64,000 nucleotides of DNA from Takakia lepidozioides (GCA_030704615.1 CM060733.1:57598001-57662000); one strand, 5' to 3'; numbered from the stretch's first letter, positions 1,462 to 39,432 are shown. The notes: generated by a model not told the origin, from the sequence alone. Translations and numbers: made by a program.

Positions 1462-2454
1462 GTCGTAAAAGTCAAAAAACTGGGATCGACTGGAAGTTAC
1501 AACAGACTAGTTACAACATACGTGGTAGTTGGGTTGGACATCCAATGATTGGAGTGGTAAAGGACGCACACGCGCGAACAACTGCTCAGCGATTAATGCG
1601 ATTGATGTTGAAGAACCACGTGGCGTAACCAGGCGGGCCGCCCGTGTGTCTGACCTTTTGGGCTGACTTTGACTTTTCCCTCCGGATGAGTGGACTGACT
1701 CACCCGGGGCGCGGTGACACATGGACGCGGACGTGGATGCGGACGTGGATGCCGATGTGGCGGCGCCGCAACGAGTAGCAATGCTGCCGCGTGGCCACGG
1801 GCCCAAGACGCCACATCGCAGTTGGCCACATCACTTGGAGTGCTGCATGTGACGTCGCAACAGCCACTGGCGAAGTCGACTGCACAACTTCCGGCAGACG
1901 AATCCACGGGGACCACGTAGAGCCATCTCGGGACTGCTTTGGCCAACTCCGCTACCACTGTGCTAGTTGGTTGCACTACAGTAGGAAAGCACGAAAAATG
2001 AGCACTTGTAGTGGTTTGTGTGAGTTTTCAATTGACCTGCATTCTAAGCTGAAAATATGGTTCTGATGCATTCTACTGGTTTTAGTGGTTCACCCATATG
2101 CAGGGGGAATTGAGAAGCAATGATACTGGGCGAGACTCAGAACACAGACCACGATGCATGCACAACATCACGCTAATGAACCAAATAGACGAGGCAACAG
2201 GGAGACCAAAGACCATCACACATACACATAGAAGGTGGACGGACACGACGACAAGTCAGGAAATGTGATATTACATTCAAATTAGAGACCGTCACGGCAC
2301 ACCTGCATATGAGCAAGACTAAATGCCAACATACATGGTTGCCGGACATCACTTAAACTGTCATGGCCCAAATGTTCAAAACTGGTAACGTGAGTATCAT
2401 ACACACTTCTATGAGTATCATTACACACCCAACAGGGACTACAAACATGAAATG

Positions 2455-5400
2455 TCACTTGATACTTTCACCTTTCCTCATACTCTTCTCTGGCCACAGA
2501 GTCACCGTGCCTTTCACGTGCGCTAGTGTGGTCTGGGGGGGGGGGCATCGTCCACATTTGGGCAAGGCAATGTAACACTTGGAAGCATGATCTCGTGGAC
2601 TTTCACCTTGTACCACCCGGATCGAATGTCCTTGCAGTGGAACTTTTCAACCCCGGTTGTAACGGTAGCCTTTAAGAGATCCAAGCAAGAAAAGGTTGGG
2701 CGCAGTTTACAAGGAGCACCTGAGAGCATTGTACACACAAGATCTGATATCTGCAGACACCAACATCAGGGTCCACTCAGCAACAAACATAGCAATGACA
2801 GGGTGAAAGTCAAGCGCAGCTGGGCATGGAAACGATCTTGGTTGCCACAATACTGAATCAGCAGCCAATTCACGGTGTACCAACGTACCTTGAAGCGAAG
2901 CTCGTCGCTGAGGGTGGCAACTGAGGAAAGCTGCCCACGTGTCTTCAACTGCAGCAGCAAAAAGAGGTTTAGTCAGACGGATAAGAATAACATGAACTCT
3001 GGTGGTTGCAATGGTATAAACACACCTCCACGGAGCAAGCTAACAAACACCCTGCTCAGACCCTAGCACTACAACTTCCTGGCAAAAATAACCCTACTAA
3101 AAACCAGCCAGGCAAAGCAAGGAGCCATGAATGCATGCCTGGGGAACCACGTCCTGCTGCGATGATGGTGCCGGGGACAGCCCACTCCTCTTGCTCACTT
3201 GCAATGAATACACATTGCAATGCTTCAAGAAGTGTATCCATAAAGGAAACCAACCAAGTAAGTTTGCGGAGAGGGGCTGGGAACAACCATACCTTGGGCG
3301 CTGCCTCCTCATGCCGGGGGGGGAATCCGGAATGTTGCCGCCGTAGCACTATGGTCGTAGGCGCAGGACCCACCTTCTTCACATTCGACCCCACTGCCAC
3401 TCCCTGTACATGTGGTCCCTGCAAAACATATAGTGCCAGCCTTGCGTGAGAGGGCATCCAGGGGGAACAAAACAAACATGGACTTTGGCTTCGATGTCAT
3501 GTTGCAAACAGTAAGGTTAGTTTCACCTGCATGGGCGCAGAAGTACTTCCCCCAACGACCCCATCCTCTCCCACATTCAAGCTGCCAGTCGGGGTCAGCT
3601 TCCGCGTGCTTGTGAAGACACGCACATCCTTGGAGCAAAACAAATCTTGGCAGTAGGGCCAGACTGTTTCTAAAAGGTAGTCTGAATCGGGCCCCTCACT
3701 GACATTGCCAGTGACATCAAACGACAATGGATGGACCATGTTCAAAGGGGAGTTCCCCCTCCCCTTGTGTGGTGAATCATCCACTAGGAGGGTGTTGGAT
3801 TCGTTAAATCCAGAAAATTCCGACCACACCCTCGACAGTCTCTTCTGTAAGTTTTGTACGGCAGGCCCTTTTGTGGGGTGTGGCTCTGTCAAGGGGTCAC
3901 ACTCCTCTTGTGACCACACAAAGAGGGGAGAACCCTTGACCCCCTGCATGACCACTTTGAAGATGTCTGCAACATTCCCCTTGGAAGCACAGGACCATAT
4001 CCCAACGTAGAAATACCGGAAGAGAAGGTTTAAAAACTCGCAGACCTGGGGCCTTGGGAAAACATACTTGTTGGTGGTCAACACCCATGGCCAATGACGC
4101 CTCGGGTTGGGCTGAAAGTTAGGAATAGAGTGGCACAGGATCCCGTTCAGGTCTAGAACAATTAGTTTCAATTTTTCTATGAAAAGAGCTTTTGAAGGGG
4201 TGTCACGGGGTCTCACCTCAGTGGGTTGGGAGACAACAGTCACCCCGGAGGGCAAAGTTTCGGTCCCCCTGCAGCCTGGACCAGGCAAACTACCACCCTC
4301 TCCCCCTACAGCTTCCCCTTTCCCCCCATCATGAGCAATGACCCCCCCATCGTCCATGTCATCCCCACCAACTTGCTGGACCTCTCCCTCTTCAACGAGT
4401 GGACCCTGCCCCCCACTATGAATATCATCAACAACAGCCCGGACCTCTGTCACATCCCTACCCACTACAATTACTTCCTCCTTGTCAGGTACAATGGTCG
4501 CAGCAGGGGGGTCTTCCATAATGCCACCCGTCACACCCCCTTTTTGCCCCATCATGAGTTCCACTATCTTCTTCAGTTGTGCTTCCATTCCCCTCTCCCG
4601 CTCCGCAGAGAGAGCCGCAAGCCTCTCCAGGGCCCCGATGCGGGCTGCCATTGAGTTCCCCGCTCCCTACGCATACAAACACCCACCCGTACTGTTAAAA
4701 ACCAGAAGAAGAGGCCGAATGTGCAGGATTTTAGGCATTCGGAGATGGCTAGGTTTGGCATAACACCCCTCATGTACCATGCGTGGGGGCCCCACATACC
4801 CACCAAATCTTAGTACAACAACAGATTCATGAATGGAAACCGGACTTCAAAACATACCTGGCTCAAAACAGACTCTGATGGGGTGCCAGTCGCAGCGTTC
4901 TTGCACTCCGCCCCGAGCTCGGACAGTGACGGGCTCCGCGCTTTGCGTCTTTTCTGTATTTGCCCATCCACACACTGTCAGTACAAAATGCCAGGAGCAT
5001 ATGGACAAAGCACTGCCCTGCATATCACATAACAACTAATTCTGCACAAGCAATAAAACCCACTCGTGGGTGTCTCTTCCATCAGAACATGCCACAACGT
5101 AAGAGCAATGAGAAGGGGGTGAGGGAGATTACCAAACGGGCTGCTTGGCCTGCAACTCCTGCCCGGCCCCAACGCGAGGGGTTCGTGACACAAGCACGCG
5201 CTTGCTTCATCCCTTCAACCTTTGCAAGTCCACGAGGGGACTCCCAGTAGGCAACAAGCTTATCCCAATAGGCGGGTTCAGTGTTCATTGGCCTCACACC
5301 AGTCTTCGCCCATTTATCTTTCAGTTTTGCTCTTTCTCCTTTCATTATCTTCCCACATTGCTTCACTATAAAATCACGATTGGCAGGGATAGGTGTGTAC

Positions 5401-5920
5401 TCGTACATTCCATTTATGCCCTCTATTACTGTTGACATGGCACTCTGGGACTGCTGGTCAATGTCTTGTACGCTTGAGTCAAGGTAACGCAATGCCAGGC
5501 CACGCAAATCACGCTGCCAGTGTTCCTTACCTTCGCAGCCAGCATTGATGACTCCATTTCCATGCACCTCCACCTTGTGGCGCTTTAGCCCTGCAGCCAC
5601 CCTTCCCTCTCCATCTCCTTCCCATTGTTTCATGGCATGACGTCGTTCCTTCCTCAGCTCTGATGTCCGTTTCCTGCCCCCATGCTCTGGAGCAGCGCCG
5701 TCATACGTTGTGGGGGGTGACTGATGTGTGCCGGAGGGGGAGGGCCGTATGGAGATGTGGGAGGCCCCCATTGTGACGTGGCAACATCAGGAAGCCAGCG
5801 CCACGACCCCGAAGCAGGGGGGGCTCCCCATGGTGCACTCTGTTGTGGAGACCATCCGGCAGGGGGTGGGTGCCAAGGTTGGTGTTGGTTGGCATTGGTG
5901 GCTGTGAGCTTCACTCCCCT
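2455..5920 (-). CDS. CACTA TnpA-like protein (Transposase_24-like N-domain + FCP1/SCP-like HAD phosphatase + Tnp1-like C-terminal domain), multi-exon
   Basis: Exon ending 5133 encodes YWDKLVAYWESP..KVEGMKQAR..PSRWGRAG (Ptta/En/Spm TnpA signature). Phase-0 GT-AG joins give 5133>4953-4858>4666-3527>3418-3293. After small exons (~3190-3140, ~2948-2889), the last exon encodes FHCKDIRSGWYKVKVHEIMLPSVTLPCP...TLAHVKGTVTLWP, with a frameshift in the G11 run at ~2535-2545. 5' end approximate. Confidence 0.75.
3527..4666 (-). CDS. Exon encoding FCP1/SCP (NIF)-family HAD phosphatase-like domain
   Basis: ORF 3497..4651 contains LIVLDLNGIL, VFPRPQVCEFL, YVGIWSCA, LFVWSQEEC, KRLSRVW and NTLLVDDSPHKG, the FCP1-homology motifs in order. 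Confidence 0.85.
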
Positions 5921-6545
5921 TCCGCTGCCAAAAACATCCCACACACAAGGTGCATCAGCTGTAGTCCTACTGAACACAACGTCACCAGAGCACAAACCAT
6001 CCCACAACCACAACTATGGATTGGCTGACCTCAAACCCACTCCCCTGCAGCGCAAGTGCCAAAAACTGAAAAGGAGAGGGACAGAATGTCCTCATAACAT
6101 GTAAGCCCATTCATTGGTGAAGAAACAGAATGTGGGCGGGTTCACATCAGTACCACATGAAACTTACCAGGAAACAGAACATCCATCCGGGTTTTGCACA
6201 TATCCAGTGGACATCTATTCACACAATCAGCAAATGGCTGTATGGCGGAGCCCAGCAACGGAGCCCCAAAAGGCCTAAAGACTCTCAATGTTGGTAAACA
6301 CAGGTGCAGACACAATTCAATTGAAAGGATATTGCAGACCTAGCCTCGTTGGAGTTATCAACGCATATAGCAAATGCGTACTCCAACGCAGGTGCAATGA
6401 CGTGACAAAGCAACATTTCCTTGACCTAAAAACTAGTCCCTCTGCACACAGTGGTAGACCTGAAGGTTTTTCCACGATGTCCTCCCCCATGACACAAATT
6501 GAAAACATGTTCAGGGATGTTTTCTGCCTAACTTCATTTTCTGCC

Positions 6546-7653
6546 CAATCAGATCTCCTCTACGCTGATGATGTTGCCCTTTTGGCACAATCCCCGGTCT
6601 TTCTGCAACGCCATATCAAAATTTTGGAACAGTTCTGCAAAGACTATGGGATGCAAGTCAATCTTAGCAAGACCAAGATCATGGTCTTCAATGGCCAGGC
6701 TGATCGTAGATTCATCTTCAACCAGCAGGAAATTGAGATTGTCAAATCATACCGGTACCTAGGTCTGGTTATCCACTCCCCCAAGTTTCACTTTGCAGCC
6801 ACTGCCTTGGACAGATTGACTAAAGGTAAGGCGGCCTCCGTCCGCCTTCACGCCAAATGCAAGCAAATACATCTGCGGCATCCCCCGACCAAAAAGTGGT
6901 TGTTTGACACCGTCGTCAGCCCTGCTACCATCAATGGTTGTGAGTTCTGGGCACCTGGTGTCCCTGTCTCCTGGTGGGAAAAGAATTTGGAACCATTACA
7001 GTCATCTTTTCTCCAAGCAATGCTTGGCGCCAGGAGCACAACTCCATCTCAGATCCTAGGTGCAGAGTTCGCATGTGTACCATTGCAATCCGAGGCACAG
7101 TTCAGGCTTACAATCTTTCTCCATAGATTGCAGGCCCTTCCACCCAAAGGGCTAGTGGCAAGGGCCCTCACAACATCTATGAGGCTCAAAGCTGCAGGTT
7201 TCGGGAACTCCTGGTATGCTCGAGTGGACAGTTTATTGAAACGTAACGGACTTTCTACTGCTTTCCTATTACCAATGAACCCACATGAGGTGGACATCAC
7301 ATCCAGACATGACCGCAACAGACTCATTCGGAGAGAGCTTATGGAATTACATGTCAAGAGAACTTGGATGCTACCCAATCTCACAACAAAGCTCCACTTC
7401 TATCGAGAGACATTCTTGGTGCTCCGCGATGATAGAATCTTCAGACCAAATTACCTTTCAGCACCCTTACCTCCTTCCCTCTTGAGGGCATTGGGGCGGT
7501 TCAGGGTGGGTTCCCACAACCTACGGATAGAGACTGGCAGATGGGAAAACCTGCAACGGGAGGACCGCCTATGTCCAGCTTGCATAGGGCGCAACAAGGA
7601 AATTGAAACTGAAGAACACTTCTTCTTCTACTGCCCTGTATACTACGAGATCC
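6546..7653 (+). mobile_element. Truncated non-LTR retrotransposon (family B): RT C-half and CCHC zinc finger
   Basis: LLYADDVALL, VNLSKTKIMVF, YRYLGL, FRVGSHNLRIETGRW and RLCPAC..ETEEHFFFYCP; near-identical to 57860-58075. Flanked by minus-strand family A remnants (~6440-6545, ~7654-7725). Confidence 0.85.
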
Positions 7654-9771
7654 GTTTGAACAACTTTGTGGATATGTGCATCCCAGTTTCAGTTTCAGTT
7701 TCAGTTTCAGGAGAACTCAACGCCCAGAAAACAAGAACACAAGTAGGGGTAGAACTCACCTCATGCGCAGCGGTTTTGTGTTGTTTGCGCACCTTTTGGA
7801 GAGACTCTGCAGATGGAGGTGCAATTTCCTCGAACTGTCCTCCACCTCATCGTCGTCGCCCATGCTATACTCGCTTGTGTCAAAATCCGAACTCGAAGAC
7901 CGCCCACCGCTCTGCCTTCCCTCTCGCACCGACGCCATCTGTACCGGATTCAGTCGAGCCAGGCGGGGGCTCCTTCGCACCGCGGGGCTGGAATGTGCAG
8001 AAGTGGGAGGAGGTGATGCTGCCTCGGCGGTCGAGCGTTCTTACTAGGCGTGGACATAGACCATGACAAAGATGAAGACGAGCGAGGACATAGACCATGA
8101 CCAAGACAAAGACGAGCGAGGAAGACCAAGACATGCAAAGGAGGAAAGAAGGACAAGGAGGGGAGTGTGATCACACACACCCCCCCCGATCTGTAGTGAA
8201 GATCCGGCCGTTGTTGATTTCAAATATGAACACGTGTCGTGCATCCGACACTATGGCCTTTTCGACTTTGAGACGTTAAACCCTAAACCACTTACAATCC
8301 TCCAGACAACTAGATGTAGTGATTCACACAACTGACATGGATCCGTTAACTTTTTTTCGTTCAAAATTAGGCGAAGGAAACACACTGCAATGATGCCGTG
8401 TATGGCTCCGCTTTACATGCATTCTTGGAGAAAATGCGCATGATGTGTGAGAAGTGAACACAGTGCTCTGCCAAATGATTCAGCAAAAACAAACTCAACT
8501 GTAGTGGTTCTCCCATCGCAGAGAAGGGTCCATTCGACACCCATCGCACCATGCCAGGTTGAGGTCCTCACACACACACCTACACACCGAGAATTTGCGA
8601 ACCCACATCAGCTGGGAGAACATGGAAATTACCCCGTGGATCACATGCAAGCATGAATGAGAAATGGGTTTATGTTACATGGGAGATTTTGGTGTACCTG
8701 CGCGACATGCAACTCTGTCTACATACTCCATAAGTCGCTGTCCCAAGACCCAAGTGGACAGGGGAGGCCGGTGAGTCTGTACCACAAATGGTAATCATAC
8801 AGCAGAGGGTACTGCTGCCCAACGTGCAAAAGCCGCCGGCTGCAGGATGCTAGGCATGCGAACTCGGGCACAACACGCCTCCTCTGCACCCCACTCCGTC
8901 CCAACCAGTGCAAAACAACCGTGCATGCATTGACTGCCCTCTGGCTTTCTCTCCAGGCATTTGGGGGTCTGCGATCTGCTACACGTAAGTGTCTTTGAAT
9001 GCGACGATCAAAGGATCCGGTCACTTGCAGTTGCCGTCTCAAGGGCAGCATTGCAAGAATCAGAATTAAGTAAGAAAGATGGTGGAAGAAGCTGCAAACA
9101 GCAAATGAGTGAAGTGGCAGGGCGATGCTCCATTTTTAACATGCTCCCCTTCCCGCCATGGTGATAGAGCCACACAAATGGACTCTCTTCCCGCCACGGT
9201 GCAATTTCACGGCAACGGAACGGGATTGTCCGCCGAAACGTGATTTGGAGATGGCCTAAGACAAGTGGCGCAAGTTCTGGCCTTGTAGTCAGGTTGTTCA
9301 CACTTCAATGCACACATTTCATACACATTCAACCATATGCCCAAGATCACAACGTCGTCAATCGTGAAAATTGAAATTCCACGTACGTCCTCCGATTCCT
9401 CACACACACACGAACTGTAGAGACAGGTCGTTTTCCAGGATGTCGTTGTTTGAGTCGATTTTGGTCATTTCTCTCAGTGTCTTGTTGAAAAGATTCTAGT
9501 TATGATGGGAAGCATCGTGATGGCTTTTAAATGGTTTGCTGTTGAGTGTAACTTTTCATCATGTTGTGGAATCTACCGGTTGGTATAAAATGTCAATTGT
9601 CTTCTCTGCCAAGGATGTGCGGCTGAACCTTTCAAATTGAGATTGCAGGAGGAGGGAATTGACGGTAGTGAAATGGGAGTGGCAGAGCCAAATTGAGGAA
9701 TCTCTGCAAAGGAGAATCCGGCCCCCTGCAACGGCGTGCACAAACAGCATTGAAGAGGCTCCCCAACAAAA

Positions 9772-12378
9772 ATGAGTTCCCCTCGCCCATGCGGAGGACT
9801 TCCAATTAATCACCCCTGTAGACAGAACACCCGAGATGACAGGTTGTGGGAAAGAGAAGTGGCACGTGCCCGAGCCCTTGGGCTTTCAAGGATGCCATGC
9901 CCATGTGAACGTTGTTTGGGCACTACAAGTAGATCTGAGGACGGTGTGCGCACACATCTCCTTCACCACAAAAGACATGAAGCATTTCGGGTGTGGATTG
10001 GAGATGGACCTGCAGACGAAGACGATGAGGAGTGGGCACAATTGGACAATGCACACCCCCGAGGGAGCCATACAGACAGGCCAGACGAGGACTATGTCAT
10101 GGGCGCAGGACATGAACCAGGCATGGACGGAGGGGTGGAGATTACTCGAATGTTGCAGGAAGCATTCCACATCATGGACGATGCTGAAGAGGGGGACGGC
10201 GCTGCGACAACTGGGGATGGTGATGACGCAGGAAATGAAGGCATTCACGTGGGGGAAGGCGTGGAAGGAGGTGGAGATGAGAATTGAATTCTGCACACAT
10301 GACACTAGAAGAAGCATGTGTGCCACTGTACGAGGGATGCAAATCCACAAAGCTTGCTGCCACCATGCTGTTGATGAACCTGTGCACAACCCACGGAGTC
10401 TCAGACCATTTTGTGGACGAGTTGTTCTCTTTGCTTCGGCTGAACTTGCTTCCACAACCAAATGAAATGCCAAAAAGCTGTCACATGGCCAACCAAATGA
10501 TTGGGAAGCTCGGCCTCAACTACGTGAAAATACATGCATGTCCAAAAGGACATGTACTTTTCAGAAGAGAGTACAAGGATGCTATGGAGTGCCCCAAATG
10601 CGGTGCAGCCCGATACCATGATGTGGGCAGGTTACAACAGCCAGCCAAGGTGTTGAGGCACTTTCCCCTTATCCCCCGTCTATTACGAATGTACAAATGC
10701 AAGACCATTAGTGAGCTCATGACTTGGCATTCCAGGAATGCCTCAAACGATGGTTTGGTAAGGCATGTCCCAGATTCCCTTGCATGGAAGCATATAGATG
10801 CAACTTGGCCCGATTTTGCCGAGGACCCACGCAATGTGCGATTGGCTGTATCTACGGATGGAGTAAACCCATACGGATCAAAGAGTTGCACATGGTCCAC
10901 ATGGCCCGTGCAGTTGGTGGCATACAACCTGCCACCATGGTTGACAACAAAGAAATTCTTTGTCATGTTGTCTCTCTTGATTCCAGGCAAGGAGTCCGTG
11001 ACAAATGCAAACATAGATGTATATTTGCAACCATTGATTGAAGAGCTACAGGAACTATGGATTGGAGTTGAAGCTTACGACATTTTGAAACCAGTAGGGC
11101 AACGGAGTTTCACCCTCCGTGCCATACTCATGTGGTCAATCCACGATTTCCCCGCATATGGCCTTATTGCGGGTTGCAAGACGAAGGGCTACAAAGGGTG
11201 CCCCATTTGTGGGCCCTATGTGGATTCACGGCACTCAAAGCCACTAGGGAAGACAATATACATGGGGCATCGACGTTACCTTGCAAGAAACCACCCCTAC
11301 CGACGAGCAGGAAGGCACTTCAATGGATGTGTTGAAAAGAGAATGGCACCAAATGCTGTGACACCGGAGGAGACATTGCAATTTGCAAAGGAGAAAGAGG
11401 CGTTCATGGAGATTGGAGGGAGAAACGGAAGTAGTGCGGATCCAGCCATGGAGCACGGGGTGAAGCGCCGGACAATCCTTTGGGATTTGCCATATTGGAA
11501 GGTGCATGAATCCCCCCCCCCCATTCACTCACTTTCTTTCACATTGTGCTTCCTGGAATTACCTTTACTGTCAGGAGTCCTTCCACCAACTCCTAAGTCA
11601 GTGTAACTACTATGCAGTAGATGTTGAAGTCGTACACCTCACTGTGGAGAGGATCGTGGAGTTGTTGAAAGCAGAATGTAGTAACATGGACAACTTCTGC
11701 CACATATTCTACTTTTTTTGCCCATAGAACTTGGTCTCATGGGAGGACATTTGGCATTTCAGAACCTCTTGCAGCGGTACCTCCTGGACCCCATGCATTG
11801 TGAGAAGAACTTCTGCGAGAACATTCTGAAGACTATCTTTGGGGAGAAGGATACGATAAACGTACGAAAGGACATGGGGAGATTGAAGGGATACGGTCAC
11901 ATCTGTGGCTAAGGCCTGATCCAAATAGGCCAGGCAAAGTGCTCATGCCAGCAGCATCATACGTCCTGACCAAATCAGAGCAAGAGGATTTTTTGAAGAC
12001 ATTGGGAGCCATGAAAGTGCCAACCGGATTCTCGGGTGTTTTCCAAAAGCATGCCATAAACAAGAAATGGTCGGGGATGAAGTCACATGATCTACACGTG
12101 ATGATGCAACAGATTTTGCCAGTGTGCATTCGGGGTACGATGGCGCCAGGTCCTCGAACAGCCATAATGCGTGTAAGTCGAGTGTTTAGGAAGATTTGTG
12201 CGAAGGTGTGGGATCCGAGGGACATTACATCGTTGCATGAGGATGTGGCTATGACCCTATGTTTGCTGGAGAAAGAATTCCCTCCATCATTCTTTGACGT
12301 CATGACGCACTTGCTAGTGCATCTTGTAGAGGAGTTGCATGTGTGTGGGCCGTAGCCAGCCGGTGGATGTACCCCAGG
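9772..12378 (+). mobile_element. CACTA/En-Spm TnpD transposase (transposase-associated domain, Transposase_21, DUF4218), frameshifted and 3'-truncated
   Basis: MPCPCERC..VRTHLLHH; KIHACPKGHVLFR; LRHFPLIPRL; RNVRLAVSTDGVNPY; YNLPPWL; IDVYLQPLIEEL; WSIHDFPAYG; intron ~11502-11762 (PYWK|NLLQRYLLDPMHCEKN); GMKSHDLHVMMQ; FPPSFFDVMTHLLVHL; ends abruptly after RWMYP. Confidence 0.92.
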
Positions 12379-12595
12379 GATGCCTCGGCGTGAGCCTGGT
12401 CACGTGAGCACGTGAGCGCGTGAGCGCGACTGCGCTCACGCCACGTCACCTTGCGCAAATGCCACATCACGGGTCTCAGTCCACGTCATCACACGTGGAG
12501 GCCGAGTCACCACGCACCCAGAAAGAAGTGGAGTGTATTCCCGCGGATTGGCACCCTTTACCGCGGAAACAAGCTGGACGACATAATAAAAGGCA

Positions 12596-13078: not shown

Positions 13079-16000
13079 TCAGTCTGACTCAGAGTCAGTA
13101 CAATGTATCCCCTCTTCCTCTGCATCTAAGTCTAAGTATTTTAGAACACCGGATCCACGCTGGATACACCTACGGCTGGACACTAAAAAGTCAGGGGATA
13201 GGGACTCGGACGCGTGAAGTGCCATTGCTTCGGCATAAACAGGGAGCAGAAAATTGGAAAGGGGGCTGTCGAAAACAGACTCGCCAGAAATGACTGTATC
13301 TCCTGAAGATCCACCGCTGGCTTTCCTGAAAGACAGCCTGAAAAAGTTATTACTGTAACTTTGATGTTATCGAGAAATTGAGTATGACTCCCAAAGAGGG
13401 TTTAGCACTTACTCACATGAAAAGTCGTTGTCGACCTGCTTATCTTCGGGATCGTCATCATTTCGAATATGAATACGATCAGTCTGTGTGCCTGAAGTGG
13501 AGCCAGACAAAAGGGGGAGGAGCACTGTGTTGTAGAGGTCAGAATCACCCTCCATACCAAAAAGGCTTCTTCCGCCTGCCTTGCATGCGTGGTAAGTTGC
13601 TCCTGCACCAGACAGGAGAACATAAGCAGTTTGGAGGAGGGGATTTAAGCAGATGAAACTATTGAAAGGAAACCAATTCGGAAGGGAGAAAACGAACCTG
13701 TGGACACAGAAAGATCGACCACCCGTGCAGAGCGGTGGCTGCATGACTCCAGCAGTATTTGCATGAATGCTGGTGACTTTTCCTTTGCACCTCTCCAGGG
13801 AGTGCCATCTGGTCTCTTCAGAGTCTGACTGGACTGCATGAAGTTGTACAAAATGTCATCGACATGGGGCTCATAGGGGGGGTTGACGAAACAACCCTGG
13901 TCAGAAATCTCAAAGCTGCGGATGGAGGATGGTGTCTTTGATGTGCGAATCCTCCGCAGGCAGATCGCCTCGAACATCCTCGTCTGCCAAAGATAGCAGG
14001 TTAGTGTGGTAAACACAATCTAAAGTGGAAGTGTGTACATCGGCTATTCAGAACTCTGACACCAAAAAAACCATGAATCGTTGATGATCGGTGTCGATCA
14101 TAAAACATTCTACTAGAGTGGAGCTGCAGAGAAAATTGAAACTCATGATCAAAGCATAAGCAGAAGGCAGACGGCATACCAGCTGACCAGGGAAACCCCC
14201 TTTCACAAGGTAGAGGCTGTTCACACAATTCCATGTGCGCAAAACTTCAAACCCTGAAGACTTGAGGTATGATGCCAATGCCCGACGACTATCATTGTCA
14301 CATGACTGAAAAAGCAGAAGTGTCCCTGCATCAGAGAGGAAATTGTTACAGAACCCGAATACCCAACTCCAGTAGTTGTCCTCGAATTTGTTCCACCCTG
14401 ACGTCTTGCCCTTTGGAAGAACTTCTGGGACAGCCTGGCCATCCGGGATGTCGAGAATGACAATGTCGGCCGCATAAGTTTTCTGCACACCGCACACGAA
14501 GGTGGGACCTGTGCTCACCTGCAACAGACATGTTTTTTATAAGAACGATGGCAAGAATGTTTTCAAAGAACGAGACTGAAATACTGAAAACGAAACATTC
14601 AGAGAAAAAGGAAAGAAAGTGGAATTCTCACCAGATTGAGGAATGAGATTATATTGTCCCAGGTAGGGGATGGCACCCCAGTGTATCCTCTCTTTCGACT
14701 CTGCATCATCGAAAGCCAACCCTCATTAACAATTTTCATCTCTCCTGCTGAATCAGAACGGGAAGGGTGTGGCTTGGCATCGAACACGCACTGAAGAGTG
14801 CGGGTATATCTTCCAGCACTAAAGTCCTGCCCACTCTCCATCTCCTTTTCATTCTCCTTCCCCTTGTCCTTTTCCTTCTCTTTGGACTTGTCTTTGTCCT
14901 TTGGCTTTGCTGGTGAGATGGCTATGACATCAACAGCCTTGTCTTTTGGTTTGCGGCCCGCCTTCTTTCCCTTCTGCGGCGTTCCCTGAGCATCAGGCTC
15001 CTTGGCAGCCAAGGTTGCTATGTTTCGTTGATACTCCTCGTCAGTCAAAGGCGCCAGCATCTCAGCGTTATTGTTCAAGTATTTCATATGCTGTTCTTGA
15101 AAGGTCGTGTGCTCAGGTGGGCAGTCAAGGTACCACCCACAGTCTCTGAAGTGAGAAGGACTCCAGTCCTTCAATATCCCTGCAGTATACATGGTTGGAT
15201 CGTTTGCAGGGTCCGACCACATGTCAAGATAGTCGGGAATTCCGCTCAGGTGATTTCCTTCCATAAGCACATATTTCGTGTACCTGAAAAAAGGAGATGA
15301 ATCCCAACCCACAAAAGCGCTCAGTGAGAAAGATGCAAGTAGAACAGAAAGAATAAAACATGGATACAAATGGCTCTGACAACTGCTCCAAGGACCTTTC
15401 AAAACCACACTACTGCTCCAGATATGAATGTCGTCAACGCCATTCAGAACATTCCATTCCATGACACTGTAAATACATCCTAATCCAGGTGAAAGCAAAT
15501 ATGCGATTAGAAATGACACAGACATAGAAGTGAATGTCGTCAACGACATTCAAGAATGAAGCCAAATTATTACTGAAATGAAGCAAAATCACAGGGTGGA
15601 AATAAAAAAATTGAGTAAGGAACCAACCAGGAAAACTCAATGCACATTCATAACGAACCTATCACTGAGGACCTCACAACATCACTGTATGTGAATGGCG
15701 TCAACGCCATTCACAAAAATACAAAAAAGAAACCAATTACTTAGCTCCCCAATCCATGAAAATTGAATTTGTCGTTTTTTAATAATACAGACACAGCTGT
15801 GAATGTCGTCAACGACATTCACTTTGGATTTCTTAAAACAGAGCTTATGAAGCCTCCATATTCATCGCAAGAGGAAAAAACAATGCAGAACAACTGAATG
15901 TCTGCATTGACATTCAGCAAAATGAAGTGATCAACCCTCATTGTATCCTCTATGGACATTACAAAAATTTAAATAACCTTGAGGACCACACAACAACTCC

Positions 16001-18712
16001 GTATGTGAATGTCGTCAACGCCATTCAAGGACATTATCAATTCTACTCAGGGACAATATAATTGCACCCTTAGATCCTAACCAGGTGAATTCATATACTC
16101 GCTTAAGAATGACTCAGACAAAGAAGTGAATGTCGTCAACGACATTCAATCTGGATCTAAGATTGCAATCCATATGAAGCCACATTTTTTCCCAAAAAAA
16201 CAGTAGAGTTTCAAGTATGACATTTCACCTGTACACAACTCGCATCATGGCCCACTCTCCTCCAACCTGACTGTCAAAGTCGTTGGACCGTAAAATGTTA
16301 CCATCTTTGGAGAACTCCCGGAAAAAACAGTATCTCCACGTGAGACCTCTCCACTTCCTTATGTATGCCTCCAATGACATTTGGGGAGGGGAAACAATCG
16401 CAATGTTCAGGTCCTTCAAAGTCTGATCCAGCACAATGACGGCGCGCTTTTCCAGCTGCAAATAGAATATTTGTCAGAATTGCAAAAAAGAAACACATCA
16501 CATACTTGAAGATAAGAAACAGCATGTTCGAATACACACCTGACTCCAAAATGTAGCCTTGTGGAGCCAGTTATCAAACACCAAATCACTGATTCCTTCC
16601 ACCTTTGTGCCAGGCTGTATGGTGCTCTTTGGGAACTGATTCAAGTCCTTTACTGTTTGATCTGAGTTCCATATCTCCAGCCACCTTATTTTTGTTTGTG
16701 GGTCGACCATCGATATGGCCAGCCGGTGCAATTTCTCCTGCTGCATCTCCGGATGCACATGCTTGTCATAGTGTGTTTTGATCTGCTGAAGGAACTCAGG
16801 ACCAAGTCCAGGATCTACTATTCTAAGCTGCTTTCCGAAGGCTGACATCAATTTGGTTCTTCGCATCTCAAACTCCTTCTTTATTGCAGCTTCCACACCC
16901 TTTGATGTCCTTAGTTCCTCTGGTGTAGTGCGGTAATATTCGGATTTTCCCTTCTCAGCTGCCTCTGCCAGTTCTTGCTGCATTCATTCAAGTAGTGATT
17001 AGCTCCGAAGGGACTCTAAACATGTATTCGAAAAGTAAACAGAGTACAGACTCGGGCTTACCGCATACATGTACTCCAGAAACGCCTCTCGTGTCAAAGA
17101 ATACCAAGTGCCTGCAGCTCTTCCTGTTTCGCACTTCTTGATGATATTGGGTGGTAGTACTGTCCGAAAATCATCCAGCTTCATCAGACCAATCCTCTGA
17201 ATTCGGAATAGTGTGTGAACCAAGCTTGTTGTCACATGCGATTTCTCTGTCGATCTGCAAAAACATTGAAAACATTGCATTCCTTACCACTGTTTTTTGA
17301 GGATCAACAAGACACTACAGAGGGAATCAAATCTCCTGGATGACTTACTTGTGTTCACGTCGTGCATATGAGTAAGTAGCCTAGCGATGTCGTTTCCTGG
17401 ATCCAAAACCATTGCCTCCACAAACATGCTTGTCTTTGTCTTTCGAATGGTGTTTCTGAATGTATCCCATCCATGCAGCAATCGGTGGTTGCCGTCCCCA
17501 GACGTAGAACATGTGGTTGCAAATTGCTGGTGTTCTTTCCCATCATGAGGCCCAGCTCGAACTCCTCATTGGCATCTTCTCCAGCACTCATCCCAGTTAT
17601 CACTGATCTCTGGAGAAACTAATGTGCTTTTCCCATTTATATCCGTCAGTGACACATAAAACTTGTGCACCAAGTCTATATCCATGCACAAAATCACTCT
17701 CCATTTTGTTATGTCGTGGGAAGAGGTGGTGGACGCACAACAGGCATTGATATCATCCGGCACAGAGGTATGTCCAGACGCCCTCCAGATACGAGCATGT
17801 CCCTTATAACCTCCTGAGGTTTACTTCTGGAATGACATGAGTTCTTTCACCTTGTCAAGGTAGTGCACTTCGGATTCATCTGCTTCATCTGTATTCTCTG
17901 AGCTTTTTGCGGACTCGTCCCCATCTCCAGATCCTTTTCCCCTCTGATCCTGTAGGCTTCGACCTCACAGTTTTTCTGCACGATGCCCATTCAGTTCTGA
18001 GTAAGTCATTTGCAAATAGTGAATGGCGGTAACGACCATCACTCTGTATCAAGGAAACTCACCATGAATGGTGTGAAAGAATTCAGACAATCCCACAGAA
18101 AAGCCGAGACTGTCGTATTCAAAACAAAGCGAGAGCAATAGCGAACGGCGTTAACGACAATCACAAAGATAACGACCTGCCGGATCGGTGTTGTGTAATG
18201 ACATACATGTGCAACTGATTGGCGGCAACGACATTCAGTGTAGTTTAGGGCGGATAGTAAGTGCAGACTCTCTCTTCAAACACATATGTACATAAATGTC
18301 ATCAAGCAGAATCGAATGGCGTTAACGACGCTCGCGATTCAGTATTCCTGCTAAAGAATGGAAGAGGAAGGACTCCTTGAAAGGCAATCACCTAGACAAT
18401 AGATAACAACTTCACTGGCACCTTCTTAGGTTGAACTTGATCCCCTTCTTGCAGCTTTCCTCTTCCCTCTCACATCTGCTGGATTTCTGTCTGCGCAAGG
18501 GTTGCTTGACCTTCTTCAGGTTCGGCGTTCCGCGTGCTTCCACCTTCTTCAGTGTCCTTCGATTCATCTCTGCCTCCACAGGCTGGCGCACTCTTATCGG
18601 CCGCTGTGTCGCAGCCGTGCTAGCTCAGTTTCCGTCTGCTCTTTTTTTGAATCAGTCTCCGCGTTCACCTGCTGCCTTGGCCCTGTGTTCTCCAACAAAC
18701 GACGCCTCGTCA
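13079..18712 (-). CDS. Spliced ParB-like (DGNHR) + beta-class N4C/N6A DNA methyltransferase-like fusion protein
   Basis: Exons ~18712-18422, 17949-~17349, ~17254-17062, 16977-16540, 16455-16229, 15283-14632, 14518-14180, 13983-13698, ~13602-13417, ~13337-13079. MTase motifs in beta order: ADIVILDIPD (motif IV, DPPY-like), NFLSDAGTLLLF, TRMFEAICL, WRGAKEKSPAFMQILLESCS, RVVDLSVSTG|ATYHACKAGGRSLFGMEGDSDLY (motifs I-II). MFYVW-DGNHRL at ~17480-17510 needs a 1-nt correction. Several indels in the 5' exons. Confidence 0.75.
15425..16148. repeat. Intronic array of seven 22-bp palindromes TGAATGTCGT-CA-ACGACATTCA
   Basis: Copies start at 15425, 15531, 15692, 15800, 15895, 16006 and 16127, all inside intron 15284-16228. 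Confidence 0.9.
18020..18334. repeat. Second intronic array of degenerate copies of the same 22-bp palindrome
   Basis: Copies at 18020 (TGAATGGCGGTAACGACCATCA), 18142, 18216 (TGATTGGCGGCAACGACATTCA) and 18313, inside intron 17950-18421. Confidence 0.75.
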
Positions 18713-20215
18713 TTTTCTCTCTGCGCTAAGTCTCTCTCTAAGGGAAGTAAAATAAAGAGACTTTCTTCTCTTTCGTATTCTAGAAGGAACCCTCTCCAGC
18801 TTGACTACCACTCTCCCTCTAAGCGCGAACTAGAAAAACGCAGTGACTCCCGATTTCTTGCGGGATTGCCTGTGTTCTTGCTTGTCTCTAGAAGCATCGG
18901 ATTCCCTCCCGCGTGACCGTTACACATAGTCGTTTCGATATTAATGCACATGCCAACAATTGGGTACAGCTGTTCGTATTCAGTTATGGATGTCTGACGT
19001 GTGCCGCCCAAAACAAAACGGCGTGTTCTAAATTATAACTGGTTCAATATTTTAAAACGAACAGCGAATCCAGAAATTGATGCGCATTCTTAAACAAATA
19101 AATATAAATGAACGAGAGTTTGATGACAATTTTGGAATATCATACAAGGTCATCCTTGTTATCCGGTCCATCCACATTCGTTGCACATTTGGAACTTTCC
19201 AGTGCGCATGATCATTGGTAGTAGTATATAGATACATATTACTTATCTGCAATCCTTCTCGATCCTGTGGCATGCTTCCAGGAAGTCGGCTTTGTTATTG
19301 GGGTTTATTGTGAGGTCTGATTAAACGGTTTTAAAGTTTCCGACACTGCCCCTATGGATTCTCTGACCACTGGGCCCACAAGAAAATAATTAAATGGACG
19401 GCTGCATATCTGGAATGAATAACAGAATAATGCACAGTCGTTATCTGAGCTTCCTCCGCCATATGCTCTGCTCATTCTTCAACTGTGTTCTGGAGACAGC
19501 AGTAAACCGATTTACACTAGATCTGCGATAGCAAGGTACACATACTCGAGGAAGGAAGATGGCTTCCTCTGAAGCGGAGTTCTTCTCGATCAGACGCAAA
19601 CCAGTGCCGTCTCCCAGGAAGTCCTTGACAATGATTGCAATTGTTCTGGAACATGTCTTGGCTACCCGTTTTCAGCTGCAGAATGGCTCCATCTTTTGGA
19701 GAAAGAGGTTTACGATCTGAAAGGGAAGTTGGTGAAATATCTTTCCAAAACCGTGATGAGACGGCTCATATCAGCCAGTGGAGAGTGCGTCCTGGTCGAT
19801 ACAGAGTACTTGGAGAGCCTCTTAAAAGTCCCTTGGGTCATATGTGACGACCGGGACTGCTGCTTCGGGCGTTGAAGACAAGATGAGGGGTGGTGAAAAA
19901 AGAACAGACTTCCCCACTCCAATCGTTGAGCTTTCGATTCTTTCGATGATGACATAAGTGAAATTCCAAATCCAGTCCTTCCTACTGTGGTTTCAGAAGT
20001 CGATGAGAAGAGATTTTGTAGTGTCATTCCAATTGCGGCGATGGGAGGGAATGGCTGGATTCAAAACGAGTTGGCGGGATTGATTGGGAATCTTGAACAG
20101 GCCTGTGAAGTTCTTGCCCGGAGACTTTTTGCTGCGATATCATATTCGGCTGCCTCCTCCTCCGCGGTTGGAGTGTAACCATCATGATGCATGTAAGGAC
20201 AAGAACACGACGGGC

Positions 20216-20715
20216 NNNNNNNNNNNNNNNNNNNNNNNNNNNNNNNNNNNNNNNNNNNNNNNNNNNNNNNNNNNNNNNNNNNNNNNNNNNNNNNNNNNNN
20301 NNNNNNNNNNNNNNNNNNNNNNNNNNNNNNNNNNNNNNNNNNNNNNNNNNNNNNNNNNNNNNNNNNNNNNNNNNNNNNNNNNNNNNNNNNNNNNNNNNNN
20401 NNNNNNNNNNNNNNNNNNNNNNNNNNNNNNNNNNNNNNNNNNNNNNNNNNNNNNNNNNNNNNNNNNNNNNNNNNNNNNNNNNNNNNNNNNNNNNNNNNNN
20501 NNNNNNNNNNNNNNNNNNNNNNNNNNNNNNNNNNNNNNNNNNNNNNNNNNNNNNNNNNNNNNNNNNNNNNNNNNNNNNNNNNNNNNNNNNNNNNNNNNNN
20601 NNNNNNNNNNNNNNNNNNNNNNNNNNNNNNNNNNNNNNNNNNNNNNNNNNNNNNNNNNNNNNNNNNNNNNNNNNNNNNNNNNNNNNNNNNNNNNNNNNNN
20701 NNNNNNNNNNNNNNN
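20216..20715. other. Assembly gap (500 N)
   Basis: Run of exactly 500 N. Confidence 1.
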
Positions 20716-36448: not shown

Positions 36449-38639
36449 CTACAGCCTCGCCTTGTGTCTCCATCTCCTCAATGAGTTGGAAAGTTCTGTA
36501 AGCCTAGTCTGCCGCGCACCACTCAAAAGCGTAGTATATGTTATGAAATTAGGGCTAACACCATCAGAAAGGGCATCCTTTCCCTTTATCTCCTCAAACA
36601 ATTTGTAGGCCTCAGCCACCCGGTCAGCCTTGCAAAGTCCATGAAGCAGTGTGTTATAGGTAACAACATCCACACATCCCTTTCCACTCATTTCCTCGAA
36701 AAGTTTCGAGGCTTCGTCCATTCTTCCACCCTTACATAGCTCATCCAGGAGCGTGTTATATGTGACTGCGTCGGGTTCACAGCCTGAGTCCTGCATCTCT
36801 AGCAGAAGGTGCCCAACCTCCTCAACCCTGCCTGCCTTGCGAAGTCCATCAATAAGAGTGTTGTACACTGCAACATCTGGAGTGCAACCTGCACGTTTCA
36901 TGTCTCTGAGAAGTGTGAAGGCATTATCAACACGCCCTACTTTGGAAAAACCATCAATTATTGCATTGTAGGTGAAGACGTCCGGGGCATACCCTCCCTC
37001 TGCACACACGCAATGCAGTGAGTAACTTGACAGTGGACAACAACACATTGAGGGACCACAAATCTCTTACAATACATGAGCTTCCTTCAGCATTTTAGAT
37101 CCACCATTGGTTCAACCATCAAAATAATCCAAAGTTACCCACCAATCTGGTCTTTCACTGAAGGCGAAAGTGCAAGAAAATGCAGGGAACACGTCGATCA
37201 TTTACCATCCATCTCCCGTCAGTTCATAAAGGTTGGTATGATCCTACTAAGCAACAAGATGGGATCTGGATCTGAGGAGACCAACCTTCCATCTCTTCAA
37301 AAACCTCCCACGCTTCATCAAGTTTCTCTGCCTTACAAAGGGCATTGATGAGGATATTGTATATACACTCATCAACAGGACAGCGCCTAATTGACATTTC
37401 CTTGAAAACCTTGCGTGCCTCATTTGCCCTACCTGCACCACTCAACGCCTGAATCAGGCAGCTGTACGTGATTACGTCTGGTGTAAGCCCTTTATCTATC
37501 ATTTCTCTAAATAATTTCCATGCAGCATCAACTCTGCCTGACTTCCCAAGGCCATGGATGAGGGTGTTGTATGTCACAATGGATGTGACAAGACCCCTGT
37601 CTTCCATTTCTTTGAAAAATTCGAGGGCTTTGCCCACCCTGCCAGCCTTGCCCAATCCATCAATCATTGAATTGAAGGTGATCACGTTGGGATGACAACC
37701 CCTCTTTTTCATTTTGAGAAAGATGGAGCATGCCTCATCCATGGCGCCAGCTTTGCACAGAGCATCAATCAGAGTAGTAAATGTAACAACGTCCGGTTCA
37801 CAGCTTTGGCTTTGCATTTCTTCGAACATCTTACTCACAAACACCACTTTCCTGGTCTTTTTGAATGAATTCATAAGGATGTTGAAGGTGAAGGTGTCTG
37901 GGTGGCACCCGGTCTGCCACATGACCTGATAGACAGCATATGCCTTATGATGATACCCAGCTTTAACAAAGGCACAGATGAGGGCATTGTATGCAAACAC
38001 TTCAGGCAAGCACCCCAATTGCTTCATGCGATTCAAAGCCTCTACAGCTTTTTCCAACAATCCTGCACTGCCATAGCTTCTGGCCAAGCTGATGTATATT
38101 TCCGGTATTGGCCTGCAGCCTTCCTTTCCCATATCATCCAGTATCTGCTCGATGTCTGCAAACCTTTTGGTGCTGCCTAAAACCCCCACCATTGCATTGT
38201 ACGTTTGAAAGTTATGGGTGAATCCATATTGCTGCCCGACCCAGTTGAAAAAACCCAATGCCACATCCGCGTCTCGCTGTCTCTTCAACACATGACATAC
38301 AAACTTCGGAATGAGATTTAAACCCAGCTGCCTCAATGCTACTTCTTTGTCGGTTCCCCATAGCCCTCTTCGAAGTATTCGGCATACAGCCTCCATCTCC
38401 ATATCTGTGATCCGGGCATGATGGGTTTCTGTTCCAATTCCCTTTCTGCCAACTTGAAGAACCTCCCGCGCATCCTTATCAACCTTGTCTCTCCCATCCT
38501 TAACAGTATGTACGGAACTGCTAGCCTGAAGCCTGTACACCAAGCAATCGAACCCAGGAGAGCCGCACCTGTGGTGTAAACCTAAAGACCGATGCCTTTT
38601 GAGCAATTTCACCAAGGAAGAGCAAGCTTTGAAATGCAT
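36449..38639 (-). CDS. P-class pentatricopeptide repeat protein
   Basis: Tandem 35-aa PPR motifs (PDVVTFTTLIDALCKAG etc.) after ALGFFNWVGQQYGFTHNFQTYNAM. Phase-1 intron 37285-37000 joins EEME|EGGYAPDVFTYN. C-terminus uncertain (possible frameshift near 36500). Confidence 0.9.
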
Positions 38640-39432
38640 AGCCAATAAGCTCTGCGGCTTCAACTCAGGGCATGAGGAAATCACAGCCCCCGCTCATTGA
38701 CACATTGTTGCTGACCGAATCACATTACATGCAACAGTCTCTCTCACACGCGAACATCCTCTCTTTCTCTCTCTCCCTCCCTCCCTCCCTCCATGTCAGG
38801 TCTGAAACATCTGGGTTTTTGGTCAAAGATACTTTTTGTTAAGGAACATCAACCAAAACTCTCTGGTGCATGACAAATCCTAACACGTTCCCCACGAACT
38901 AGAGTGGTTCCGCTCAGGGCGAAAATATTTGACACTATGAAATCTAACGTGACAAAAAATAGTTGTTTGGAGGATTGTAGATTGGTGTATTCGAAGTCAC
39001 AGATATTTTGGTCTGGCACCTGATGTTTTATGCGGTAAAAGAGTAGGTGGGTATCCCATGTATGATGAAACCCTGGGGAGCTTTACTTACAAACTGACAT
39101 CTCATCTAGGTCTTCAGAGCAGGATATGTGTTGAGAGATACTGCGAGGCCAGCAGGTTCGGAATTCAACATTTCAAGTGCGCAAACAAGAGAGATGGTCT
39201 TGCAGACAACAATCTCTAAGTAGGATGGATTACTTGATGCTCGGCAAAGACATTGTATTATGAAGCAACTCTTATGACGTACTACAATGCGTCACCAAGT
39301 GCCGTCCAGCCGTGCTTGCACCAACTCCTCCACGCACAGATCTCGGAGTTGGTCTGCAAACAACTCATTGCAGGACCAAACTTGGTATGGTGCCATGCCT
39401 CGTTATGCGCTTAATTGATCTTGAGGGGGACG

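What the first reader, a model, noticed from the sequence alone, without database searches (positions are those of the whole stretch)
2455..5920. FCP1/SCP-type phosphatase domain spliced into the middle of a CACTA TnpA protein
Seen: phase-0 GT-AG junctions (5133>4953, 4858>4666, 3527>3418) join the Transposase_24-like exon in frame to a complete HAD/FCP1-homology domain, and later exons give the Tnp1-like C-terminal domain. Established: CACTA elements capture domains such as ULP1 proteases, and FCP1/SCP enzymes dephosphorylate the Pol II CTD. Inference: a DNA-binding transposon protein tethering a CTD-phosphatase-like domain could tune its own transcription or silencing. Motif I is DLNGI rather than DxDxT, so activity is uncertain. 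One small downstream exon needs a GC donor.
Basis: partly seen in the sequence, partly recalled or inferred. Interest (0 to 1): 0.78.

Follow-up and report, generated by a model that had tools for sequence, protein, structure and literature searches.

The report
Phosphatase-like domain inside transposon regulator
A now-broken copy of a likely bryophyte CACTA transposon has a whole phosphatase-fold domain written into the gene for its accessory TnpA protein, which would let the transposon carry an atypical phosphatase or phosphoprotein-binding module to its own DNA.

Summary
Largely confirmed. A minus-strand gene, divergent from a CACTA TnpD transposase, encodes a TnpA core, a helix/coil, an acidic linker, a full NIF/FCP1-fold domain and a DUF8039-type end. 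TnpA homology runs across both upstream junctions into the very exon that holds the NIF domain, and a contig of a ~88% identical paralog lacks both introns with exact lengths. Splicing from the NIF exon onward has no RNA support. The GC-donor exon is not needed for frame. DLNG is not decay: it marks a separate, uncharacterised subfamily (32 of 34 relatives), so 'Pol II CTD phosphatase' is only a fold analogy. A 37-codon sample suggests purifying selection (pN/pS 0.32, P=0.03). This copy is broken (frameshifts, 84-nt filler, truncated TnpD); termini were not found. No NIF in 95+11 TnpA relatives, mostly fragments; my paper searches found no description. The scan noted NIF-ending second genes in moss CACTA elements of two other genomes; here the domain lies mid-protein. 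New variant of TnpA with a captured enzyme domain (ULP1 is the precedent).

The parts
7749..8040 (-). Candidate first exon of the TnpA gene (Ser/Asp-rich, ends at a GTGAGT donor); inferred only
   Evidence: open frame 7756-8040, translation; no Pfam support; no RNA tested here
6279..7655 (+). LINE reverse-transcriptase fragment, likely inserted in the first intron of the TnpA gene
   Evidence: RVT_1 E 1.8e-10; similar LINE pieces elsewhere in the window, e.g. 7449-7655 vs 58074-57868 at 98.6%
5133..5924 (-). TnpA core exon: Pro/Trp-rich low-complexity start (frameshifted in this copy above about 5735), then Transposase_24-like helical core (about 5573-5133)
   Evidence: pLDDT 91.6, six helices; indels against X1/X2
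4858..4953 (-). Exon 2, 96 nt, basic helix beginning KRRKARSP
   Evidence: aligns to spliced relatives P0037, P0062, P0074, P0065; 94+2 letters between the flanks in the X4 contig
3527..4666 (-). Exon 3, 1140 nt: TnpA coil (about 4650-4500), acidic Gly-rich linker, NIF domain
   Evidence: alignment to P0065 and P0125 runs into this exon; X3/X4 contigs on 4455-4668 and 4051-4222
3620..4168 (-). NIF / FCP1-SCP-fold HAD domain of the DLNG subfamily: motif I DLNG, motif II WS, conserved Lys, motif IV DDSP
   Evidence: PF03031 E 3.5e-13; model pLDDT 82; Z 19.4, rmsd 2.5, 167 aligned to SCP2; alignments
3293..3418 (-). Exon 4, 126 nt, linker; predicted
   Evidence: AG/GT sites, phase 0; no RNA bridge
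2889..2948 (-). Exon 5, 60 nt; predicted (an optional GC-donor exon near 3189-3140 may lie before it)
2455..2750 (-). Last exon: DUF8039/Tnp1-like beta domain, with 84-nt foreign filler (2657-2740) and a frameshift near 2535 in this copy
   Evidence: filler and indel
9754..12380 (+). TnpD transposase gene (Transpos_assoc, Transposase_21, DUF4218), divergent from the TnpA gene, broken near 12355-12380
   Evidence: E 4.5e-05, 2.1e-75, 1.1e-14; sequence

Best explanation
This is the TnpA accessory gene of a CACTA transposon, likely from a bryophyte, with a complete DLNG-type phosphatase-fold domain inside its linker exon; the intact protein is predicted to bind the element's own DNA through the TnpA core and to act there on a phosphorylated host protein as a slow phosphatase or phospho-binding module, likely favouring the element's expression. 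Shown: the exon order and frames, the domain identities, TnpA homology reaching into the NIF exon, removal of introns 1 and 2 in a paralog's contig, and breakage of this copy. Inferred: splicing on to the DUF8039 exons, DNA binding (from angiosperm TnpA), any catalytic activity and any substrate. The nucleophile Asp, the motif II Ser, the Lys and the motif IV Asp-Asp are kept, and the general acid/base Asp is Asn across the subfamily, so turnover would be slow or need another acid.
For: Full NIF domain in an open 1140-nt exon. BLASTP of the spliced model to P0065 spans model residues 54-300 (E 1.3e-20) and to P0125 64-282, crossing both junctions; exon 3 starts at residue 247 and NIF at about 411-416. 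Intron 1 position is conserved: 45 of 57 scorable relatives (92 examined) have Val, the GTx read-through codon, at that place, against 6.5% background. X4 contig: 4614-4668, 94 other letters, 5133-5249; 464-94 = 370 = 179+191. The same paralog-level identity covers the coil and the NIF start in X3 and X4; pN/pS 0.32 in both (P 0.032 and 0.016), with DLNGILCH unchanged. Relatives without NIF have core and C-terminal domain in one protein (P0037, P0065, P0074, P0123). C-terminal HMM from four relatives scores 33 bits against at most 5.1 in 500 shuffles. Arabidopsis TnpA binds element termini and activates them (bioRxiv 10.64898/2026.08.24.746577, sections read). TnpA-like proteins with a ULP1 domain exist (row 5).
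Against: No contig bridges 3527>3418 or later junctions, nor the linker 4223-4454, so NIF-to-DUF8039 splicing and the coil-to-NIF link in the paralog are not seen. X3/X4 are only guessed to be RNA. The paralog's exon 2 did not align at 80%, so only its length agrees. The selection test rests on 18 changes per region from cut tables, without multiple-hit correction. The near-identical copy in X1 has two extra letters inside the NIF domain near 3853. The NIF branch is very long (2.32). 0 of 95 and 0 of 11 TnpA relatives carry NIF. The subfamily has no function on record in my searches. Nothing here names a substrate.
Confidence: 0.42

Rival explanations
1. The fusion is real but the main product ends at the NIF domain: the donor at 3526 is read through to the stop at 3497, or both isoforms are made, giving the NIF-terminal architecture noted earlier in moss elements.
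For: The frame stops only nine codons after the donor; no RNA bridge downstream; earlier scan notes e1-9728884 and e1-7303624 describe NIF at the end (unchecked).
Against: Strong donor CAG/GTGAAA, three further phase-0 introns that are T-rich like introns 1 and 2; the DUF8039 exon has no other TnpA core to belong to; an X3 contig carries an open version of 2491-2630.
Confidence: 0.2
2. The NIF domain is a catalytically dead or structural module (like TIM50's phosphatase fold), used for protein contacts or stability, with no role in phosphorylation.
For: General-acid Asp is Asn (role of the second Asp from PMC9062747 passages); TIM50 is among the fold matches (Z 17.9); very long branch. A paper suggests a like role for inactive DIRS1 methylase domains (PMC4738411 passage).
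Against: All other catalytic positions are kept, and DLNG, WS and DDSP are near-invariant from plants to metagenomic and giant-virus relatives, which suits a retained active site.
Confidence: 0.23
3. The domain is a neutral passenger: a gene fragment captured in frame into a tolerant linker and carried without function.
For: Absent from other TnpA relatives; this copy and the X1 copy are broken; CACTA elements capture host fragments (PMC13317346 passages).
Against: The whole domain is open and folds although only about 35% identical to any relative; synonymous excess against the paralog; it groups with other non-host-like NIFs (96/84).
Confidence: 0.1
4. The domain is a small-molecule or DNA-end phosphatase that helps repair excision sites rather than regulate transcription.
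For: HAD phosphatases of the DxDxT type include polynucleotide 3'-phosphatases; the host substrate of the DLNG subfamily is unknown.
Against: The fold is the SCP/CTDNEP1/UBLCP1 protein-phosphatase type (Z 15-19) and well above other HADs (Z 11 or less).
Confidence: 0.05

Closest known systems
En/Spm (CACTA) TnpA, e.g. Arabidopsis TnpA-Spm1 (bioRxiv 10.64898/2026.08.24.746577) and maize TnpA (recalled)
   Same: Accessory gene beside a TnpD transposase; Transposase_24-like helical core, coil and DUF8039/PF03017-type end; separately transcribed gene.
   Different: Carries a 180-residue HAD domain inside the linker exon; bryophyte-type family (named relatives Riccia, Ceratodon, Calypogeia), whereas that preprint reports TnpA-like proteins as apparently restricted to flowering plants; divergent orientation; DNA binding untested.
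Transposon accessory proteins with a captured ULP1 domain: KIU/VANC of VANDAL Mutator elements, CACTA-ULP1 of grapevine and rice, Transposase_24+Peptidase_C48+DUF8039 proteins
   Same: Host-type enzyme domain placed in a transposon regulator and kept (PMC13317346, PMC2528002 passages; row 5).
   Different: The cargo is a phosphatase fold, not a SUMO protease.
DLNG subfamily of FCP1-homology proteins (named after C1271.03c in one source label)
   Same: Motifs DLNG, GIWS, NTLLVDDSP; 25-39% identity.
   Different: Host members are stand-alone; this domain lies on a long branch with five unnamed metagenomic proteins; grouping with plant host genes is not rejected (p-AU 0.116).
SCP1/SCP2, FCP1, CTDNEP1, UBLCP1, TIM50
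   Same: Fold (Foldseek E about 1e-9; Z 15-19), first Asp, Lys, motif IV.
   Different: DxN instead of DxD, Ile instead of Thr; 15-25% identity; CTD specificity not shown.

Membership tests
CACTA/En-Spm element | TnpD transposase (Transposase_21 with DUF4218, Transpos_assoc) | tested here: met
   gene is broken near 12355-12380
CACTA/En-Spm element | CACTA/G terminal inverted repeats with 3-bp target duplication | tested here: inconclusive
   872 left/right pairings, none with both a long match and a duplication; gap of Ns at about 20200-20715, ends may lie outside or be lost
TnpA | Transposase_24-like core | tested here: met
   E 0.036 alone; 58 of 95 relatives match, two above cut-off
TnpA | DUF8039/Transposase_23 C-terminal domain | tested here: met
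   indirect: matches P0074 and P0123 ends, and the P0074 end is DUF8039 by features and structure; no direct Pfam hit
TnpA | Tandem tri-helical HTH DNA-binding domain | tested here: inconclusive
   six-helix model; best Z 5.4, only weak helical matches
TnpA | Binds motifs in element termini and activates the element | not testable with these tools
   needs ChIP or EMSA
FCP1/SCP CTD phosphatases | NIF fold | tested here: met
FCP1/SCP CTD phosphatases | DxDxT/V motif I | tested here: not met
   DLNGI against DLDET in SCP1
FCP1/SCP CTD phosphatases | Activity on phospho-CTD | not testable with these tools
   needs an assay
DLNG (C1271.03c-like) subfamily | DLNG, GIWS and NTLLVDDSP motifs | tested here: met
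   32 of 34 relatives have DLNG, one DLKG, one lacks the region; all three motifs in the window

The most novel reading that the evidence does not exclude
Bryophyte CACTA elements evolved a sequence-targeted phosphatase: TnpA tethers an active or substrate-trapping FCP1-fold domain to the element's ends, where it resets the phosphorylation of RNA polymerase II or a silencing factor, an anti-silencing route by dephosphorylation not described for any transposon in the papers I searched; a transposon-specific NIF lineage would have been reused in several cargo settings.
Probability: 0.18. Interest if true: 0.82.

Novelty: new variant of a known kind. Interest (0 to 1): 0.52.

Why it matters
TnpA is a sequence-specific regulator that demethylates and activates its own elements, and how it engages host machinery is only partly known. 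A lineage that built a phosphatase fold into TnpA points to phosphorylation as a lever in transposon-host conflict, extends TnpA beyond flowering plants, and gives a testable handle on an uncharacterised DLNG phosphatase subfamily found in plants, other eukaryote-like contigs and giant viruses.

Tried and rejected
No whole genome is held, so copy number and intact copies could not be surveyed. No RNA holder listed by index; X3 and X4 came by species label. Parts of the gene without cover in X3/X4 say nothing on expression. Searches for annotated TnpA-NIF fusions found none: NIF query near and longer lengths gave only PF03031 proteins (21 and 13 hits); TnpA profile, longer lengths, 11 hits without NIF; these searches are word-limited and most relatives are single-exon fragments. 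A TnpA alignment had no stretch conserved enough for a locus scan. None of 101 NIF-bearing loci (80 kept of 162 metagenomic, 21 viral) had a TnpA core or TnpD. Fold searches of the TnpA core gave no clear match. Termini not found; CAGACT, a candidate subterminal motif, is not enriched over the window (52 against 43.6 expected). Placing the window's NIF with plant host genes was not rejected. The ORFs upstream of NIF in L007/L019 show no significant tblastn match to the window's methyltransferase-like gene. Rejected: that DLNG is decay of this copy; that the GC-donor exon is required; that the NIF exon is a separate gene (it begins with the TnpA coil). Paper searches without a relevant hit: (listings only). 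The Scp1 D98N paper was not available. A complex prediction was not run: a phosphorylated substrate cannot be given. The reading frame of the 5' end differs between X1/X2 and X3/X4 and was left unresolved.

Full report
Setting. The window is eukaryotic DNA with LINE, LTR and PPR sequences. A CACTA TnpD gene lies on the plus strand at 9754-12380 (Transpos_assoc E 4.5e-05, Transposase_21 E 2.1e-75, DUF4218 E 1.1e-14) and breaks off near 12355-12380. The gene in question lies on the minus strand, head to head with it, with a LINE fragment (RVT_1 E 1.8e-10) between. No genome was held. The named relatives of the TnpA core are from Riccia sorocarpa, Ceratodon purpureus and Calypogeia fissa (8 of the 10 proteins looked up had names) and Sphagnum, so the host is likely a bryophyte; that is an inference.

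Observation. The three junctions are as stated, all GT-AG and phase 0. Two more phase-0 introns (3292-2949, 2888-2751) complete a model of about 786 residues from 5774; all five introns are 31-34% T against 15-24% in the exons. The GC-donor exon is possible (3189-3140) but not needed for frame. Exon 4666-3527 holds the whole NIF profile (E 3.5e-13).

Is the flanking gene TnpA? The core exon alone scores under the Transposase_24 cut-off. A full scan gave 95 hits (two, P0097 and P0099, are repeat-driven noise); 58 of the 95 match Transposase_24 at E<=0.05, two above the cut-off, none matches NIF. Most are single-exon fragments. Those that go on (P0037, P0065, P0074, P0123) have core, helix, coil, linker and a C-terminal beta domain; that of P0074 is DUF8039/PF03017 by features (0.94) and structure (TM 0.75). 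The window's last exon matches it on both sides of a frameshift (P0123 residues 299-339 and 336-359); read with X at the break it scores 33 bits on a four-sequence HMM against at most 5.1 in 500 shuffles (389 reported). There is no direct Pfam hit for this exon. The core folds into six helices (pLDDT 91.6), compatible with the tandem HTH reported for TnpA, but fold searches were inconclusive.

Is NIF in the same protein? Three lines support the upstream link. First, the alignment of the spliced model to P0065 runs from residue 54 to 300 and to P0125 from 64 to 282; exon 3 begins at 247, so TnpA's own coil opens the exon in which NIF starts at about 411 with no stop between. Second, intron 1 is conserved: 45 of 57 scorable relatives (92 examined, 35 did not match the anchor pattern) read into Val at that codon, background 6.5%. 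Third, a 618-nt contig in run X4 (RNA by guess only), about 88-90% identical, lies on 4614-4668 and 5133-5249 with 94 letters between: 464 skipped minus 94 is 370, the sum of the two introns, and 94 plus the shared AG is exon 2's 96. Contigs in X3 and X4 also cover the coil (4455-4609) and the NIF start (4051-4222) at about 86%. They are separate contigs; the linker 4223-4454 is not bridged. Nothing bridges 3527>3418 or later junctions, and the frame stops nine codons past that donor, so a NIF-terminal form is a live rival. I put the core-coil-NIF fusion at about 0.9 and the continuation to DUF8039 at about 0.75.

What kind of domain? The model (pLDDT 82) matches CTDNEP1, SCP1/2, TIM50, UBLCP1 and Fcp1 (Foldseek E 1e-9 to 2e-5; Z 19.4, rmsd 2.5, 167 aligned for SCP2, other HADs Z 11 or less). 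By sequence the nearest are plant and unnamed proteins at 25-39%; 32 of 34 have DLNG. So DLNG is a subfamily mark, also seen in metagenomic and giant-virus contigs. Against SCP1 the first Asp, the motif II hydroxyl, the Lys and motif IV are kept; the second Asp, proposed general acid/base (PMC9062747, passages), is Asn. HADs with another residue there are often slow to release the aspartyl-phosphate (recalled, no call). In a 37-row tree (a subset of 102 distinct domains; L012 and L081 dropped as duplicates) the window's domain joins P0004, P0017, L001, L007 and L019 (96/84) on a very long branch (FastTree on all 102 agreed, 0.945); a grouping with plant host genes is not rejected (p-AU 0.116), so the donor is not settled. 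In L019 the NIF frame lies between an ORF that looks methyltransferase-like by eye and a SET domain (E 4.3e-09); no TnpA core or TnpD was found in any of the 101 loci, so their transposon nature is only a guess.

Selection and decay. Using the differences listed (19 of 24 and 19 of 25 were shown; 18 of each fell in whole codons), pN/pS is 0.32 in 37 codons around the NIF start (P 0.032) and 0.32 in 31 codons of coil and linker (P 0.016); DLNGILCH is unchanged under silent changes. This is a small, uncorrected sample. The window's copy is broken: against X1/X2 it lacks 17 letters near 5900 and one at 5735, with a stop near 5787; 2657-2740 is replaced by 72 other letters in X1, and 2657-2735 is found inside unrelated contigs of X3 and X4, so it is likely filler; the C run near 2535 is two letters longer than in an X3 contig. 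The X1 copy has two extra letters inside NIF. X1 and X2 are small contig sets that cover introns too, which suits a multi-copy element (inference). Termini were not found.

Mechanism. Arabidopsis TnpA binds clustered motifs at element ends and activates them through host demethylases (bioRxiv 10.64898/2026.08.24.746577; outline, two sections and a term search read, 'phosphatase' 0 times; its supplements are closed and could list cargo domains). ULP1 domains are known cargo of Mutator VANC and CACTA proteins (PMC13317346 and PMC2528002, passages; row 5). By analogy the most likely reading is a DNA-tethered module acting on a phosphorylated host protein near the element, slowly or as a binder (0.42). 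Pol II CTD is the best-known substrate of the fold but nothing here singles it out. Rivals: NIF-terminal product (0.2), inert interaction module (0.23), passenger (0.1), DNA-end or small-molecule phosphatase (0.05).

Novelty. Ten paper searches (listings, with passages of five papers) found no phosphatase domain in a CACTA TnpA; the library lacks most subscription papers. The scan itself noted NIF-ending second genes in moss CACTA elements of two other genomes (unchecked AI notes; no sequence look-alike was found). This case adds an internal position before DUF8039 and transcript-level support for the upstream junctions. It is a new variant of TnpA with captured enzyme cargo, real but mechanistically open, in a dead copy: interest 0.52.

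Noticed in passing
window 13080-18000, minus strand: Multi-exon gene converging on TnpD whose later exons look DNA-methyltransferase-like by eye (DIVILDIPDG near 14470; VVDLSVSTG near 13720); no Pfam or PDB match. Possibly further cargo of the same element.
   Followed up: partly
L019 321-5576; L007 71-3862: NIF domains of the window's tree group lie downstream of a long ORF that looks methyltransferase-like by eye; in L019 a SET domain follows (PF00856 E 4.3e-09). Looks like a multi-gene cargo cluster.
   Followed up: partly
L081-L101: 21 viral contigs, likely giant viruses, encode relatives of the same NIF subfamily.
   Followed up: partly
window 1974-2013: 40-nt stretch that begins CACTACA and ends TGTAGTG, a miniature inverted repeat without a matching target duplication.
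   Followed up: partly
window 15400-16150 and 18000-18330: Repeats with a palindromic core (TGAATGTCGTCAACGACATTCA), spaced about 100-160 nt, inside introns of the methyltransferase-like gene.
   Followed up: no
window 2657-2740: In-frame 84-nt filler replacing 72 nt, identical to part of other, deeper contigs in X3 and X4: a capture or repair event, or an assembly chimera.
   Followed up: partly
P0149, P0151, P0152, P0066: Sphagnum and unnamed proteins in which a TnpA-core relative ends a protein with UBR1-like domains (PF22960): possible domestication of the core into a host gene.
   Followed up: no
window 36449-38693, minus strand: PPR-like gene in two frames (by eye).
   Followed up: no
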